Positions 5,248 through 7,202 of a DNA stretch of 64,000 nt are shown here, piece after piece. Under the pieces are notes generated by a model. That model saw nothing but the letters and a program-made list of their open reading frames with translations. It did no database searches and had not been told where the DNA came from. Both the position numbers and the translations under genes were made by a program. Each line of letters opens with the position of its first letter. Position 1 is the stretch's first letter. The DNA is from a virus (lineage: Duplodnaviria > Caudoviricetes): positions 81,843 through 145,842 of IMG/VR virus record IMGVR_UViG_3300035101_000015; one strand, written 5' to 3'.

Positions 5248-5314
5248 GAGCGACCGGATGGTGTGGGTTATCGCCAACACAGACATCCACATCAATGAAC
5301 TTGTCGCTCTTTTT
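5248..5314 (+). ncRNA. Minimal Y RNA-like RNA
   Basis: gagcgac/gtcgctc terminal stem, GACCGGATGGTGTGGGTTATC, inner stem ggtgtgg/ccacatc, ACTTGTC, then a U-tract. Confidence 0.75.
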
Positions 5315-5317
5315 ACC

Positions 5318-5344
5318 ACTTGCTCCGTACGGAGCCGAAAGGAG
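5318..5344 (+). promoter_or_regulatory. Ro-binding-like hairpin abutting/overlapping the rsr Shine-Dalgarno (putative autoregulatory site)
   Basis: ACTTGCTCC-gtac-GGAGCCGAA runs straight into AGGAG (5340-5344), 6 nt before GTG at 5351. Confidence 0.6.
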
Positions 5345-5350
5345 TTCATC

Positions 5351-7081
5351 GTGGACTACGCATCGCAGGTCAGCAAGAAGGTCACCCCGCAGTCTGAGCA
5401 GGCGCGGGAGGACCAGGTGAAGAACTCTGCTGGTGGATTCGTCTTCCAGCTCACCTGCTGGGACCGGCTAGACCGGTTCTTGGTCCTCGGTAACGAGGGT
5501 GGCACTTACTACGCGGGAGAGCGTGAGCTCACCAAGCAGAACGCTGCCTGCATCGAGCAGTGCCTCAACGAGGATGGACCGCGCGCCGTTGCTCGCATCG
5601 CCGAGCTCAGTGTGACGAACCGCATCCCCAAGAACGACACGGCCATCTTCGCCCTGGCACTCGCCAGTGCGCACAAGGACCAGGCCGTCCGTAAGGCAGC
5701 GTTCGCTGCTGTACCTGCAGTGTGCCGCATCGGCACGCACCTCTTCGACTACGCCAGCGCCTGTGACCACCTGCGTGGATGGGGTGAGGCGATGAAGCGC
5801 GCCATCGCCAACTGGTACCTCAGCAAGAAGCCTGAGGATGTCATGTACCAGGTAGCGAAGTACCGGCAGCGCAATGGCTGGTCCCACAAGGACATGCTCC
5901 GCCTGAGTCACGCCGTTCCTACCAACGAACTCGCTCCCATCTTCCGGTGGGTGGTCGACTCCGAACTCGGGGAGCGCGTGGTCCAGGGAAGTGAGAAGCG
6001 TGGACGCAAACAGCGTCAGTACGCCGGCGTCGGTGAGCTCCCCGAGTACCTCGAGGCGTTCAATGAGCTGCAGTCATGCAACGAGAAGCGGGTCATCGAG
6101 CTCGTGCAGAAGTACGGGTTCACCCGCGAGATGCTGCCCACGCAGCACCTCAACTCGCTGGACGTCTGGGCGGCTCTACTGCCGAAGATGCCCATCACCG
6201 CCACGCTTCGGAACCTGGGCAAGATGACCAACATCGGACTGCTCACTCCTCTCAGCGAGGGTGCGAAGGTCGTGACGGCTCGCCTGACTGACCCGAACAT
6301 TCTCAAGCGTGGGCGTGTGCATCCCATCGCGCTGCTCAACGCCCAGGCTATCTACGCCATGGGCCACGGCATCCGCCGGATGCAGAACCGTCGGGCGGAC
6401 GAGAAGGAGCCCCTCACCTGGACTCCCAACCGCGCCATCACCGACGCGCTCGACGAGGCGTTCTACCTGGCCTTCCAGGGCATCGAGCCCACTGGGAAGA
6501 ACATCCTACTGGCGCTGGACGTGTCCGGCTCCATGACGGGTGGCAGCATCGCTGGAGTGCCTGGGCTCAGCCCACGCAAGGCTTCGGCAGCGATGGCCAT
6601 GGTCACCGCCAAGAGCGAGAAGAACTGGCACATCGTGGCCTTCAGCTCGGGTGGCGGTCGCCGTGCTGGCGGATGGCAGTCCGGCAACTCCAGCCGTGGC
6701 ATGTGGGGACACAACTCCGACGGCATCTGCCCCATCGACATCACACCGAAGATGCGGCTCGACAAGGTCCTCAAGGTCCTCGAGGGCTGGCCCTTCGGTG
6801 GGACTGATGTGGCCCTGCCGGTGCTGTACGCCTTGCGGGAGAAGATGCAGGTGGACGCCTTCGTGACGTACACGGACAACGAGACCTGGGCAGGGGACAT
6901 CCACCCTCACCAGGCGCTCGAGATGTACCGTCGGGAGACCGGAATCTCCGCCAAGCTGGTGGCCGTCGGCATGACGGCAACCGACTACTCGGTGGCGGAC
7001 CCGAATGACCCTGCCTCGATGAATGTGGTCGGATTCGACTCCGCTGCACCCTCCATCATGGCGGACTTCATCCGGGGTTGA
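5351..7081 (+). CDS. rsr: Ro60/TROVE-domain RNA-binding protein (Rsr orthologue)
   Basis: N-terminal VKNSAGGFVF...LDRFLVLGNEGGTYY, KYRQRNGWSHKDMLRLSH, MPITATLRNLGKM, RVHPI; VWA MIDAS LDVSGSM, GGTDVALP, YTDNETWAG, C-terminal VVGFD. SD plus GTG at 5351. Confidence 0.95.
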   Translation: MDYASQVSKKVTPQSEQAREDQVKNSAGGFVFQLTCWDRLDRFLVLGNEGGTYYAGERELTKQNAACIEQCLNEDGPRAVARIAELSVTNRIPKNDTAIFALALASAHKDQAVRKAAFAAVPAVCRIGTHLFDYASACDHLRGWGEAMKRAIANWYLSKKPEDVMYQVAKYRQRNGWSHKDMLRLSHAVPTNELAPIFRWVVDSELGERVVQGSEKRGRKQRQYAGVGELPEYLEAFNELQSCNEKRVIELVQKYGFTREMLPTQHLNSLDVWAALLPKMPITATLRNLGKMTNIGLLTPLSEGAKVVTARLTDPNILKRGRVHPIALLNAQAIYAMGHGIRRMQNRRADEKEPLTWTPNRAITDALDEAFYLAFQGIEPTGKNILLALDVSGSMTGGSIAGVPGLSPRKASAAMAMVTAKSEKNWHIVAFSSGGGRRAGGWQSGNSSRGMWGHNSDGICPIDITPKMRLDKVLKVLEGWPFGGTDVALPVLYALREKMQVDAFVTYTDNETWAGDIHPHQALEMYRRETGISAKLVAVGMTATDYSVADPNDPASMNVVGFDSAAPSIMADFIRG

Positions 7082-7105
7082 AATCCTGACGATGAACGGG
7101 TACAA

Positions 7106-7135
7106 GAAGGGTGGCGGATTCGTCCGCCACCCTTC
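7106..7135 (+). other. Perfect 13-bp hairpin with UUCG loop directly 5' of a Y RNA (processing/stability element or terminator)
   Basis: gaagggtggcgga-ttcg-tccgccacccttc. Confidence 0.6.
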
Positions 7136-7202
7136 GGCGACCGGATGTAGTGGGTTCTCCGAATTTTGGTTTCGACAAGCCCCACTGCAACTACTTGTCG
7201 CC
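7136..7202 (+). ncRNA. Minimal Y RNA-like RNA
   Basis: ggcgac/gtcgcc terminal stem; GACCGGATGTAGTGGG pairs with CCCACTGCA; ACTTGTC on the 3' strand. Confidence 0.78.

What the first reader, a model, noticed from the sequence alone, without database searches (positions are those of the whole stretch)
5248..7202. Minimal phage Y RNAs look strikingly like vertebrate Y RNAs
Seen: 5248-5314 has GACCGGAUGGUGUGGGUUAUC...ACUUGUC..UUUUU, and 7136-7202 has GGCGACCGGAUGUAGUGGGUU...CCCCACUGCAACUACUUGUCGCC. From memory, human Y4 and Y1 begin GGCUGGUCCGA(U/A)GGUAGUG(G/A)GUUAUC, with 3' strands containing CCCACUGC or CACUUGAC and an oligo-U end. The resemblance goes beyond the bulged-C Ro helix into the upper-stem GUGGGUUAUC. 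This bears on proposed horizontal links between bacterial/phage and animal Ro60-Y RNA systems.
Basis: partly seen in the sequence, partly recalled or inferred. Interest (0 to 1): 0.7.

Follow-up and report, generated by a model that had tools for sequence, protein, structure and literature searches.

The report
Minimal Y RNAs flanking phage Ro60
Two small hairpin RNAs beside a phage's Ro60 gene are real Y RNAs, and their likeness to animal Y RNAs is real. It is shared by hundreds of bacterial and phage relatives rather than being special to this phage.

Summary
Both elements (5248-5314 and 7136-7202) are as described and fold as stable bulged-C hairpins on either side of a Ro60 gene (5351-7081) in a 146-kb phage record.

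Rfam's vertebrate Y_RNA model ranks first or second for each, but below threshold (16.7 and 19.7 bits; cut-off 38).

They belong to a large family of minimal Y RNAs. A covariance model built here finds 302 copies in 241 Ro60 loci from phages, metagenomes and at least seven bacterial phyla. All lie on the Ro60 strand, with strong covariation.

The family shares an ungapped, extended core with animal Y and stem-bulge RNAs: bulged C, GRAG, a 9-bp stem ending RUGGG, then UUAUC exactly 13 nt after the bulge, and CCC...CA...ACUUG on the 3' strand. Thirteen of 18 named bacterial loci, two metagenome loci and one phage locus reach Rfam's cut-off for the nematode stem-bulge family RF01656.

The window's own copies are weaker (20.6 bits). 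The exact GUAGU match in one copy is what chance predicts. The U5 tail looks like a bacterial terminator.

The phage Ro60 sits on a long branch and is less animal-like than several bacterial Ro60s.

A phage-specific link to animals does not. Other windows of this scan noted the same resemblance.

The parts
5214..5244 (+). 12-bp spacer hairpin between the upstream tRNA-domain Y RNA (5065-5212) and the first minimal Y RNA
   Evidence: Fold -20.6 kcal/mol, z -4.55, 0 of 200 shuffles as good
5248..5309 (+). Minimal Y RNA 1. It has a 7-bp lower stem, bulged C at 5255, GG paired to UU, and a 9-bp upper stem ending in GUGGG. UUAUC (5268-5272) starts the loop. The 3' strand is UCCACAUCA..AACUUGUCGCUC.
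   Evidence: Sequence; fold z -3.95; Rfam Y_RNA 16.7 bits, the only hit; family model R1 41.4 bits, E 1.6e-8; one of only two R1 hits in the whole 145.8-kb phage record
5310..5314 (+). U5 tract directly after the basal stem. It is a probable leaky intrinsic terminator, 36 nt before the Ro60 start codon.
   Evidence: Sequence. Only 33 of 221 unique family members have a U4+ tail, among them the Sorangium copies in the same position upstream of Ro60. The function is inferred.
5351..7081 (+). Ro60 (Rsr) gene, 576 aa, GTG start: the presumed protein partner of the Y RNAs
   Evidence: Pfam TROVE 6e-44 and vWA_Ro60 6e-55; phmmer 374 bits to Xenopus Ro60 1YVP, 371 to RO60 9NEN, 357 to Deinococcus Rsr 2NVO; the KY(K/R)QRNGWSHKD(L/M)LRLSH block aligned with the Xenopus chain is conserved
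7106..7135 (+). 13-bp hairpin with a UUCG tetraloop, between the Ro60 stop codon and the second minimal Y RNA
   Evidence: Fold -25.8 kcal/mol, z -6.89
7136..7202 (+). Minimal Y RNA 2. It has a 6-bp lower stem, bulged C at 7142, and an upper stem GUAGUGGG/CCCACUGC. UUCUC (7155-7159) replaces UUAUC. A small internal hairpin sits in the loop, and the 3' strand is AACUACUUGUCGCC. There is no U tail; the first tRNA-shaped Y RNA follows directly.
   Evidence: Sequence; fold z -3.30; Rfam RF01656 20.6 bits and Y_RNA 19.7 bits; R1 26.1 bits, E 5e-5 locally and E 0.002 in the whole phage record

Best explanation
The two elements are genuine Ro60-docking Y RNAs of the simplest kind: one hairpin holding only the Ro60-binding module and a short loop, with no tRNA-like effector domain. 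They belong to a large, previously unmodelled family of minimal Y RNAs. These are encoded on the same strand as Ro60, within about 1.6 kb of it, in phages and in many bacterial phyla.

The shared module, reading 5' to 3', is:
- a lower stem;
- a bulged C;
- G-R paired to U-U;
- an unpaired A;
- a 9-bp covarying upper stem that ends in R-U-G-G-G;
- U-U-A-Y-C, which always starts 13 nt after the bulged C;
- on the way back, C-C-C, the stem, C-A, three variable bases, then A-C-U-U-G and the lower stem.

This is the same ungapped plan as in nematode stem-bulge RNAs. With a 2-nt shorter 3' strand, it is also the plan of vertebrate Y RNAs. The animal likeness is therefore a property of the whole Ro60/Y RNA system and not of this phage.

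Shown here: the family, its covariation, its exclusive linkage to Ro60, and its significant match to a metazoan Rfam model.

Inferred:
- Ro60 binds the bulged helix as in the Xenopus complex.
- GGGUUAUC is part of the Ro60 module. It is kept at the same spacing in hairpin, tRNA-domain and permuted Y RNAs, and it is found in organisms without metazoan replication machinery.
- The minimal forms act as effector-less gates or competitors. They would occupy Ro60's outer surface alongside the tRNA-tethered Y RNAs of the same locus.
- The U5 after the first copy is a leaky terminator that sets a high ratio of Y RNA to Ro60 mRNA.
For: Identity and structure.

Family:
- Model R1 finds 85 copies in the window and viral loci, 106 in metagenome loci and 111 in named bacterial genome loci. 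All 302 are on the Ro60 strand.
- R1 hits occur in 112 of the 161 sources of the viral and metagenome sets and in 66 of 80 named genome loci.
- In full-flank loci, 88 hits lie upstream of Ro60 (median 255 nt) and 12 lie downstream.

Specificity:
- In the whole 145.8-kb phage record only these two elements hit.
- In five whole bacterial genomes (49 Mb) all 7 hits lie inside the Ro60 loci.

Covariation:
- On the MAFFT seed, 86.9% of cells pair against 67% in shuffles (0 of 500 reach it) and 38-50% with slid partners. The upper stem played no part in selecting the seed, and 8 of its 9 pairs show compensatory changes.
- On the model-fitted alignment, 89.4% pair and 17 of 19 pairs are compensatory.

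Animal likeness:
- RF01656 gives 41.5 bits (E 4e-5 in 65 kb; 7e-8 locally) for L133, and 38.1 bits for L101 and for phage locus L020.
- 13 of 18 named bacterial loci score 38.0-43.5 bits against a gathering score of 38.
- 29 of 32 positions conserved in prokaryotes equal the stem-bulge RNA consensus in one ungapped register.
- The bulge-to-UUA spacing is 13 nt in 63 of 68 minimal, 64 of 86 long and 11 of 14 permuted modules.
- U24 and U25 are invariant, and A26, C28 and G23 are 94-99% conserved, in 81 viral-set hits.

Partner: a TROVE plus vWA Ro60 with a conserved basic block.

Literature: the known bacterial motif was only GNCGAAN0-1G, and the 3' strand was not recognised in YrlA or YrlB (PMC4201824).
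Against:
- The window's own copies score below every Rfam gathering threshold.
- The second copy has UUCUC instead of UUAUC and fits R1 only moderately (26.1 bits).
- R1 was seeded with sequences chosen partly by the GGUUAYC motif, so conservation of that motif among its hits is partly circular. The Rfam hits and the invariant spacing are independent of that choice.
[quoted passage not shown] A Ro60 role for UUAUC is therefore unproven.
- In animals this motif is linked to DNA replication, not to Ro60 binding (PMC4726728).
- The gate/competitor role is a guess by analogy.
Confidence: 0.8

Rival explanations
1. The extended likeness to animal Y RNAs is convergence. Similar Ro60 proteins impose the same docking geometry on unrelated RNAs, so nothing can be concluded about common descent or transfer of the RNA.
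For: Ro60 is well conserved across domains: 357-455 bits between prokaryotic/phage and vertebrate proteins, with the same basic block. The shared RNA positions lie in one compact module of about 35 nt. Ro60s that score higher against vertebrate Ro60 (L133, L194) also carry the most stem-bulge-like Y RNAs, while the divergent phage Ro60 carries less similar ones. That pattern fits co-adaptation of the RNA to the protein.
Against: About 13 independent non-core positions are identical in an ungapped register, including unpaired ones (A, UUAUC, CA, AC). From memory, the solved Xenopus complex shows contacts mainly on the lower-helix 5' strand. The rest would then have to be constrained by contacts not yet seen. 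Co-inheritance of a protein and its RNA explains the same correlation.
Confidence: 0.3
2. A specific, fairly recent horizontal link between this phage lineage and animals. On this reading the phage's minimal Y RNAs are the closest prokaryote-side relatives of vertebrate Y RNAs.
For: 7136-7202 carries GUAGUGGGUU and CCCACUGC, exact matches to the Rfam vertebrate consensus. Its 5/5 match in the variable upper-stem positions is the best seen among about 150 comparable family members.
Against: Those five positions covary freely. About 1.3 such matches are expected by chance among roughly 280 members. The window's copies score 16.7-20.6 bits on the metazoan models, while bacterial relatives reach 38-43.5 bits. 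The phage Ro60 sits on a long branch: its only close kin are two metagenome proteins at 85% identity, and the next row is more than 1 change per site away. It scores lower against vertebrate Ro60 than the Anaerolineae and soil-metagenome Ro60s do.
Confidence: 0.03
3. The hairpins are not Ro60 ligands. They are transcription terminators, or processing or insulator hairpins, that happen to contain CCGG...CUUG.
For: The first is followed by U5. Both sit next to strong GC-rich hairpins that look like processing or insulating elements. The consensus scan found no promoter in the region.
Against: The terminator scan did not call them. The second has no U tail, and only 15% of family members have one. 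Invariant unpaired bases, a bulged C in 81 of 81 hits, covarying stems, exclusive linkage to Ro60 and significant hits to a Y-RNA-type Rfam family are not expected of terminators.
Confidence: 0.04

Closest known systems
Vertebrate Y RNAs (Rfam RF00019; hY1/3/4/5, Xenopus Y3)
   Same: Terminal stem made of the 5' and 3' ends. Bulged C followed by G-A paired to U-U, then unpaired A-G. An 8-9 bp upper stem ending in GUGGG with CCCAC opposite (the GUG-CAC motif). UUAU(C) opens the loop exactly 13 nt after the bulged C. ACUUG lies on the 3' strand. The full model length (1-96) aligns.
   Different: Scores are below the gathering cut-off (16.7 and 19.7 bits against 38; the best relative reaches 27.9 bits). 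The 3' strand between the upper stem and UUG is 2 nt longer in the prokaryotic family. The loops are much shorter (about 14-21 nt). These RNAs are encoded beside the Ro60 gene on a phage and are probably made by bacterial RNA polymerase. The U tail is occasional and terminator-like, not a Pol III/La feature.
Nematode stem-bulge RNAs (Rfam RF01656, ceN72-3_ceN74-2; Y RNA homologues, PMC4726728)
   Same: Colinear without gaps on both strands. 29 of 32 positions conserved in prokaryotes are identical, including UGGGUUAUC and C-A-(CC)-A-A-C-U-U-G. Many bacterial relatives and one phage relative pass this family's gathering score.
   Different: The window's own copies reach only 20.6 bits. The nematode model pairs GG with CC where the prokaryotic RNAs pair G-R with U-U. 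Stem-bulge RNAs are linked to DNA replication, and most are not recovered with nematode Ro60 (PMC4726728).
Hairpin-type bacterial Y RNAs: D. radiodurans Yrn2, Salmonella and M. smegmatis YrlB (Chen et al. 2014, PMC4201824)
   Same: A second, simple Y RNA encoded next to rsr alongside a tRNA-domain Y RNA. [quoted passage not shown]
   Different: Those RNAs were found by immunoprecipitation. BLAST searches found YrlB orthologues only within S. enterica serovars. No family model, conserved 3' strand or UUAUC motif is described in the text I could read. I could not compare sequences directly because none was available from a tool.
YrlA (Rfam RF02553) and D. radiodurans Yrn1 (RF01053)
   Same: Same Ro60-docking 5' motif and same genomic linkage. 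The Rfam Deinococcus consensus also shows CCgaAG...CGGU.UaC.
   Different: The minimal RNAs have no T or D arms. The Rfam YrlA consensus has GgaaCUA where this family has GGGUUAUC. Nothing in the window reaches the YrlA gathering score of 69.
Thermus phage phiLo Yrl1 and Yrl2 with phiRo60 (PMC12135203)
   Same: Phage-encoded Ro60 with short Y-like hairpins next to the gene. Binding there depends on the CGAA motif.
   Different: phiLo Ro60 is so divergent that it is not matched by this protein at E 0.001. The paper mentions no UUAUC motif.

Membership tests
Vertebrate Y RNA (Rfam RF00019) | Score at or above the curated gathering threshold (38 bits) | tested here: not met
   16.7 bits (E 0.19) and 19.7 bits (E 0.032) in about 80-nt searches. 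Not listed for these two hairpins in the whole-window search.
Vertebrate Y RNA (Rfam RF00019) | Terminal stem with a bulged C in the Ro60-binding helix, and an upper stem with GUG-CAC followed by UUAU(C) | tested here: met
   Sequence and folds. Alignments to the consensus cover model positions 1-96. The second copy has UUCUC.
Vertebrate Y RNA (Rfam RF00019) | Pol III transcript with a 3' oligo-U bound by La; bound by Ro60 in vivo | not testable with these tools
   U5 follows only the first copy. Only 15% of family members have a U4+ tail. No expression data were available.
Nematode stem-bulge RNA (Rfam RF01656) | Score at or above the gathering threshold (38 bits) | tested here: not met
   7135-7202 scores 20.6 bits. 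RF01656 was not listed for 5248-5314. Relatives do meet it: L133 41.5, L101 38.1 and phage locus L020 38.1 bits, and 13 of 18 named bacterial loci at 38.0-43.5 bits.
Prokaryotic/phage minimal Y RNA family (model R1 built here; hairpin class like YrlB/Yrn2) | Significant match to the family covariance model with the full stem architecture | tested here: met
   41.4 bits (E 1.6e-8) and 26.1 bits (E 5e-5). Both sequences were in the seed, so these matches are partly by construction. They are the only two hits in the 145.8-kb record.
Prokaryotic/phage minimal Y RNA family (model R1 built here; hairpin class like YrlB/Yrn2) | Encoded next to Ro60 and on the same strand | tested here: met
   The first copy ends 42 nt upstream of the Ro60 start and the second begins 55 nt downstream of the stop. 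All 302 family hits are on the Ro60 strand. All 7 genome-wide hits in five bacterial genomes lie in Ro60 loci.
Prokaryotic/phage minimal Y RNA family (model R1 built here; hairpin class like YrlB/Yrn2) | Both helices supported by covariation | tested here: met
   0 of 500 shuffles reach the observed pairing or covariation. 15 of 19 pairs (MAFFT seed) and 17 of 19 pairs (model-fitted alignment) show compensatory changes.
YrlA (Rfam RF02553) | tRNA-like effector domain (T arm, D arm, acceptor-like stem) between the strands of the Ro60-binding stem | tested here: not met
   The loops are about 14-21 nt with no T or D arm. No YrlA hit overlaps either element. The best YrlA hit in the region is 32.6 bits against a gathering score of 69, and it spans neighbouring tRNA-shaped units.
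Ro60 / TROVE protein (the partner) | TROVE domain plus a C-terminal Ro60-type vWA domain | tested here: met
   PF05731 at 6e-44 and PF25045 at 6e-55. 374 bits to Xenopus Ro60.

The most novel reading that the evidence does not exclude
Bacterial and phage minimal Y RNAs and animal Y and stem-bulge RNAs are true homologues. On this reading the Ro60 gene and its Y RNA travelled together as one cassette between bacteria (with phages as carriers) and the animal lineage. The RUG-CAC/UUAUC element, now known as the DNA-replication motif of vertebrate Y RNAs and nematode stem-bulge RNAs, would have begun as part of the Ro60 RNP module and been co-opted later.
Probability: 0.35. Interest if true: 0.8.

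Novelty: new member of a known kind. Interest (0 to 1): 0.55.

Why it matters
Y RNAs are known from animals and bacteria. The papers I could read treat the two sets as sharing little more than a GNCGAA/GGUCCGA core. [quoted passage not shown]

Here a simple hairpin Y RNA next to Ro60 turns out to be widespread in phages and in at least seven bacterial phyla. It is colinear with nematode stem-bulge RNAs, to the point of passing that family's curated Rfam threshold.

Three consequences follow:
- Rfam-based annotation could label bacterial genes as nematode RNAs.
- The origin of the animal Ro60/Y RNA system (descent, transfer or convergence) becomes testable with paired protein and RNA trees.
- The UUAUC and GUG-CAC motif, studied so far only for DNA replication in animals, can now be probed in simple bacterial or phage Ro60 systems.

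For this phage the finding itself is ordinary: two more members of that family.

Tried and rejected
Searches that found nothing:
- Megablast of the locus against GenBank phages.
- The search for related loci with the single protein. The alignment-based scans worked.
- An exact-pattern scan of viral contigs for the permuted module.

Tools not available:
The contigs of the two 80-85% identical Ro60 relatives (P0002, P0003) could therefore not be read.
- Two reviews on bacterial Y RNAs (PMC10870794, PMC6047535) are not held. I cannot exclude that the UUAUC conservation has been remarked on there.

Methods that fell short:
- An 'unbiased' regex for bulged-C hairpins without the UUAUC requirement was too noisy: 54 minus-strand hits against 130 plus-strand hits. 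It served only to show that the real hits carry GGUUA(U/C/A)C at offset 13.
Pairwise phmmer scores to PDB chains were used instead, with a FastTree of 244 prokaryotic and phage Ro60s.
- Direct alignment to hY1/3/4/5 was replaced by alignment to the Rfam consensus as printed by cmscan.

Readings considered and rejected: the exact GUAGU match of 7136-7202 as meaningful, and the U5 tail as a Pol III-like feature.

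Full report
**Setting.** The window is the last 64 kb of a 145,842-bp IMG/VR virus record of about 61% G+C. It carries phage-type replication genes: a DnaB-like helicase, a DNA polymerase and a UvsX-like recombinase. At 5351-7081 on the + strand lies a 576-aa Ro60 (Rsr) gene with TROVE and Ro60-type vWA domains. Small structured RNAs surround it:
- a long Y RNA with a tRNA-like middle (5065-5212);
- the two hairpins of this finding (5248-5314 and 7136-7202);
- three tRNA-shaped units whose anticodon arm carries the Ro-binding helix in permuted order (about 7209-7597);
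- one more module (7600-7672).

**The observation.** The quoted letters are at the stated coordinates. Each element folds as lower stem, bulged C, two more pairs, a short internal loop, an 8-9 bp upper stem, then a loop that opens with UUAUC (UUCUC in the second). The energies lie well below shuffled controls (z -3.95 and -3.30). Strong GC-rich spacer hairpins precede both (z -4.55 and -6.89), and in context the first Y hairpin still folds on its own. In about 80-nt searches of all Rfam families, vertebrate Y_RNA is the only hit for the first element (16.7 bits, E 0.19). For the second it is the runner-up (19.7 bits, E 0.032) behind the nematode stem-bulge family RF01656 (20.6 bits, E 0.017). 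All three are full-length alignments, and all fall below the gathering score of 38. The printed alignments show agreement through GUAGUGGGUU and CCCACUGC.

**What they belong to.** An alignment of Ro60 homologues brought in three sets of loci: 80 viral, 80 metagenomic and 80 named bacterial-genome loci. IMG/VR alone held 334 viral contigs with a relative. A first motif scan found CCGR followed by GGUU(A/C/U)UC in 99 of 160 loci, nearly always on the Ro60 strand. I aligned 57 non-redundant hairpins and built covariance model R1. R1 found 85, 106 and 111 matches at E <= 0.01 in the three sets. All 302 are on the Ro60 strand. In full-flank loci most lie upstream of the gene (median 255 nt) and some lie downstream. 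The named hosts include Verrucomicrobiota, Myxococcota (Sorangium, Minicystis, Chondromyces), Chloroflexota, Planctomycetota, Acidobacteriota and Pseudomonadota.

The family is tied to Ro60. In the whole phage record only the two elements of this finding match. In five whole bacterial genomes totalling 49 Mb, all seven matches fall inside the Ro60 loci.

Both helices covary. On the MAFFT seed, 86.9% of cells pair against 67% in shuffles and 38-50% with slid partners. Eight of the nine upper-stem pairs show double changes, and that stem played no part in choosing the sequences. The model-fitted alignment gives 89.4% pairing with 17 of 19 pairs compensatory. The window's copies score 41.4 and 26.1 bits on R1.

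**How animal-like the family is.** After clustering at 80% identity (92-96 clusters), the consensus is as follows.
- 5' strand: nnncGgGcCGaAgnnnnngGGUUAuC
- 3' strand: ncCcnnnnncannnacUUgyccg

Laid without gaps on the Rfam stem-bulge consensus printed by cmscan, 29 of 32 conserved positions are identical. About 13 of these are independent positions outside the already known CCGA/UUG core: the unpaired A, G, GGG, UUAUC, CA and AC. The distance from the bulged C to UUA is 13 nt, as in the Rfam Y_RNA and stem-bulge consensus. It holds in 63 of 68 minimal, 64 of 86 tRNA-domain and 11 of 14 permuted modules. In the viral set the two U's are invariant, and A, C and the preceding G are 94-99% conserved, on a par with the bulged C. 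An R-U precedes GGG in 60% of copies, which matches the A/GUG-CAC/U motif described for stem-bulge RNAs (PMC4726728).

Rfam's own statistics agree:
- Relatives reach 41.5 bits on RF01656 (L133; E 4e-5 in a 65-kb search, 7e-8 locally) and 38.1 bits (L101 and the phage locus L020).
- 13 of 18 named bacterial loci pass that family's gathering score at 38.0-43.5 bits.
- The best score on vertebrate Y_RNA is 27.9 bits. The prokaryotic 3' strand is 2 nt longer than the vertebrate one, but the same length as in nematodes.
- The Rfam YrlA consensus lacks the motif, while the Deinococcus Y RNA consensus has a GGU.UaC version.

**What is not special about the phage.** The window's copies are among the less animal-like members. 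The five upper-stem positions where 7136-7202 equals the vertebrate consensus (GUAGU) vary and covary freely in the family. Given the column frequencies, about 1.3 perfect matches are expected among roughly 280 members, and 7136-7202 is the only 5/5 match seen. A U4+ tail follows only 33 of 221 unique minimal hairpins. These include the Sorangium copies that sit, as here, about 40 nt upstream of Ro60. The tail is therefore best read as a leaky intrinsic terminator, not a Pol III/La feature.

The phage Ro60 scores as follows by phmmer against PDB chains:

| Ro60 query | Xenopus Ro60 | RO60 9NEN | Deinococcus Rsr |
|---|---|---|---|
| This phage | 374 | 371 | 357 |
| L133 (soil metagenome) | 428 | 455 | 395 |
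| L194 (Anaerolineae) | 448.5 | 445.5 | 398 |
| Sorangium cellulosum | 383 | 396 | 402 |

In a FastTree of 244 prokaryotic and phage Ro60s, the window's protein groups only with two metagenome proteins (85% identity). The next row is more than 1 change per site away. The basic block around the Xenopus K170, R174 and H187 positions is conserved. That these residues matter for RNA binding is from my memory of the Xenopus work.

**Reading.** The two elements are minimal, effector-less Y RNAs of a widespread Ro60-linked family. Their likeness to animal Y RNAs is a family trait. Whether that trait reflects shared descent or transfer of a Ro60+Y cassette (my estimate 0.35), or convergence on the same docking surface (0.3), cannot be settled without an animal-inclusive Ro60 tree and binding data. 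GGGUUAUC keeps its register in three RNA topologies, and it occurs in organisms without metazoan replication proteins. For both reasons I infer that it belongs to the Ro60 module. The role of the minimal forms (gate or competitor beside the tRNA-tethered Y RNAs) is by analogy with Deinococcus and animal work and is not shown.

**Literature.** Chen et al. 2014 (PMC4201824) report Y RNAs near Ro60 in more than 250 bacteria and phages. They define only GNCGAAN0-1G, note that searches with metazoan Y RNAs failed, and discarded hits overlapping tandem tRNAs. Kowalski and Krude 2015 (PMC4726728) state that bacterial Y RNAs are not homologous with the vertebrate clades and that the Deinococcus Y RNA lacks upper-stem similarity. 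Neither the phiLo paper (PMC12135203) nor the YrlA structure preprint (10.1101/312249) mentions UUAUC. Two reviews could not be read.

**Earlier notes of this scan.** One search listed earlier notes on the same resemblance, the permuted tRNA-shaped Y RNAs, the leader hairpin and the odd tRNAs. I had reached the first three independently before reading them.

Noticed in passing
window 7209-7597 (+); also L002:3731, L029:3028, L054:315 and 453, L077:5315, L111:573, 794 and 1037: Three tandem tRNA-shaped RNAs, each with acceptor, D and T arms. Their anticodon arm carries the Ro-binding helix in permuted order: 3' strand ..UGCAnnACUUGUC, a small loop, then GACCGR..GGGUUAUC. Upper-stem complementarity fits within-unit pairing, not pairing between neighbouring units. 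The same layout recurs in other Ro60 loci. Chen et al. 2014 discarded hits that overlapped tandem tRNAs.
   Followed up: partly
window 5319-5350 (+); also L002:731, L011:3452, L017:3411, L023, L026 and L028:3426, L030:3423, L036:3422, L095:631: Just before the Ro60 start codon lies a small hairpin: CUUG, stem, loop, stem, bulged C, CGAA(A), running straight into the Shine-Dalgarno AGGAG. It is a permuted mini Ro-docking helix. It recurs in at least 10 other loci, where about 0.2 would be expected by chance. It may allow translational autoregulation by Ro60. In the window the fold alone is not unusually stable (z -0.47).
   Followed up: partly
window 5065-5212 (+): A long Y RNA with the Ro-binding stem at its ends and a tRNA-like middle. 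R1 gives 32.4 bits across the large insert and Rfam RF01656 gives 25.8 bits. No YrlA match was listed over it at E <= 10.
   Followed up: no
window 7600-7672 (+): A seventh module: CACUUGCUC, a hairpin, then GAGCCGAAGUUGAAGGGUUAUC. It is again in permuted order but has no obvious tRNA body. The fold is weak (z -1.37).
   Followed up: no
window 7745-8329 (-): A PTH2-like peptidyl-tRNA hydrolase ORF (7745-8101, Pfam 2e-7) is followed upstream by two tRNAs (8177-8251 and 8255-8329). Their anticodon loops are 9 nt long, CCUAAAGAA and ACUAAAGCC. ARAGORN calls both Phe(AAA).
   Followed up: no
L101, L133, L184, L209, L218, L221 and others (Verrucomicrobiota-type Ro60 loci): In many bacterial loci Ro60 and its Y RNAs sit inside same-strand arrays of 10-25 tRNA genes within the fetched loci of up to about 8.7 kb.
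   Followed up: no
window 2310-4933 (+): Directly upstream of the Y RNA cluster lie an AAA_5 (MoxR-like) ATPase ORF and a DUF2201_N/DUF2201 (VWA-like, putative metallopeptidase) ORF. One Ro60 homologue in the protein search also carries a PF09967 annotation (P0107).
   Followed up: no
L009:2409-2466 (+): A sub-threshold match to the type-P1 twister ribozyme (45.6 bits against a gathering score of 67.2, E 7e-7), about 1 kb upstream of a phage Ro60.
   Followed up: no
L101:2236-2371 and L133:1066-1203 (+): Full-length but sub-threshold matches to the Deinococcus Y RNA family RF01053 (46.5 and 46.8 bits against a gathering score of 80), in loci that also hold YrlA-like and minimal Y RNAs. One Ro60 gene can therefore be accompanied by three Y RNA types.
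   Followed up: no
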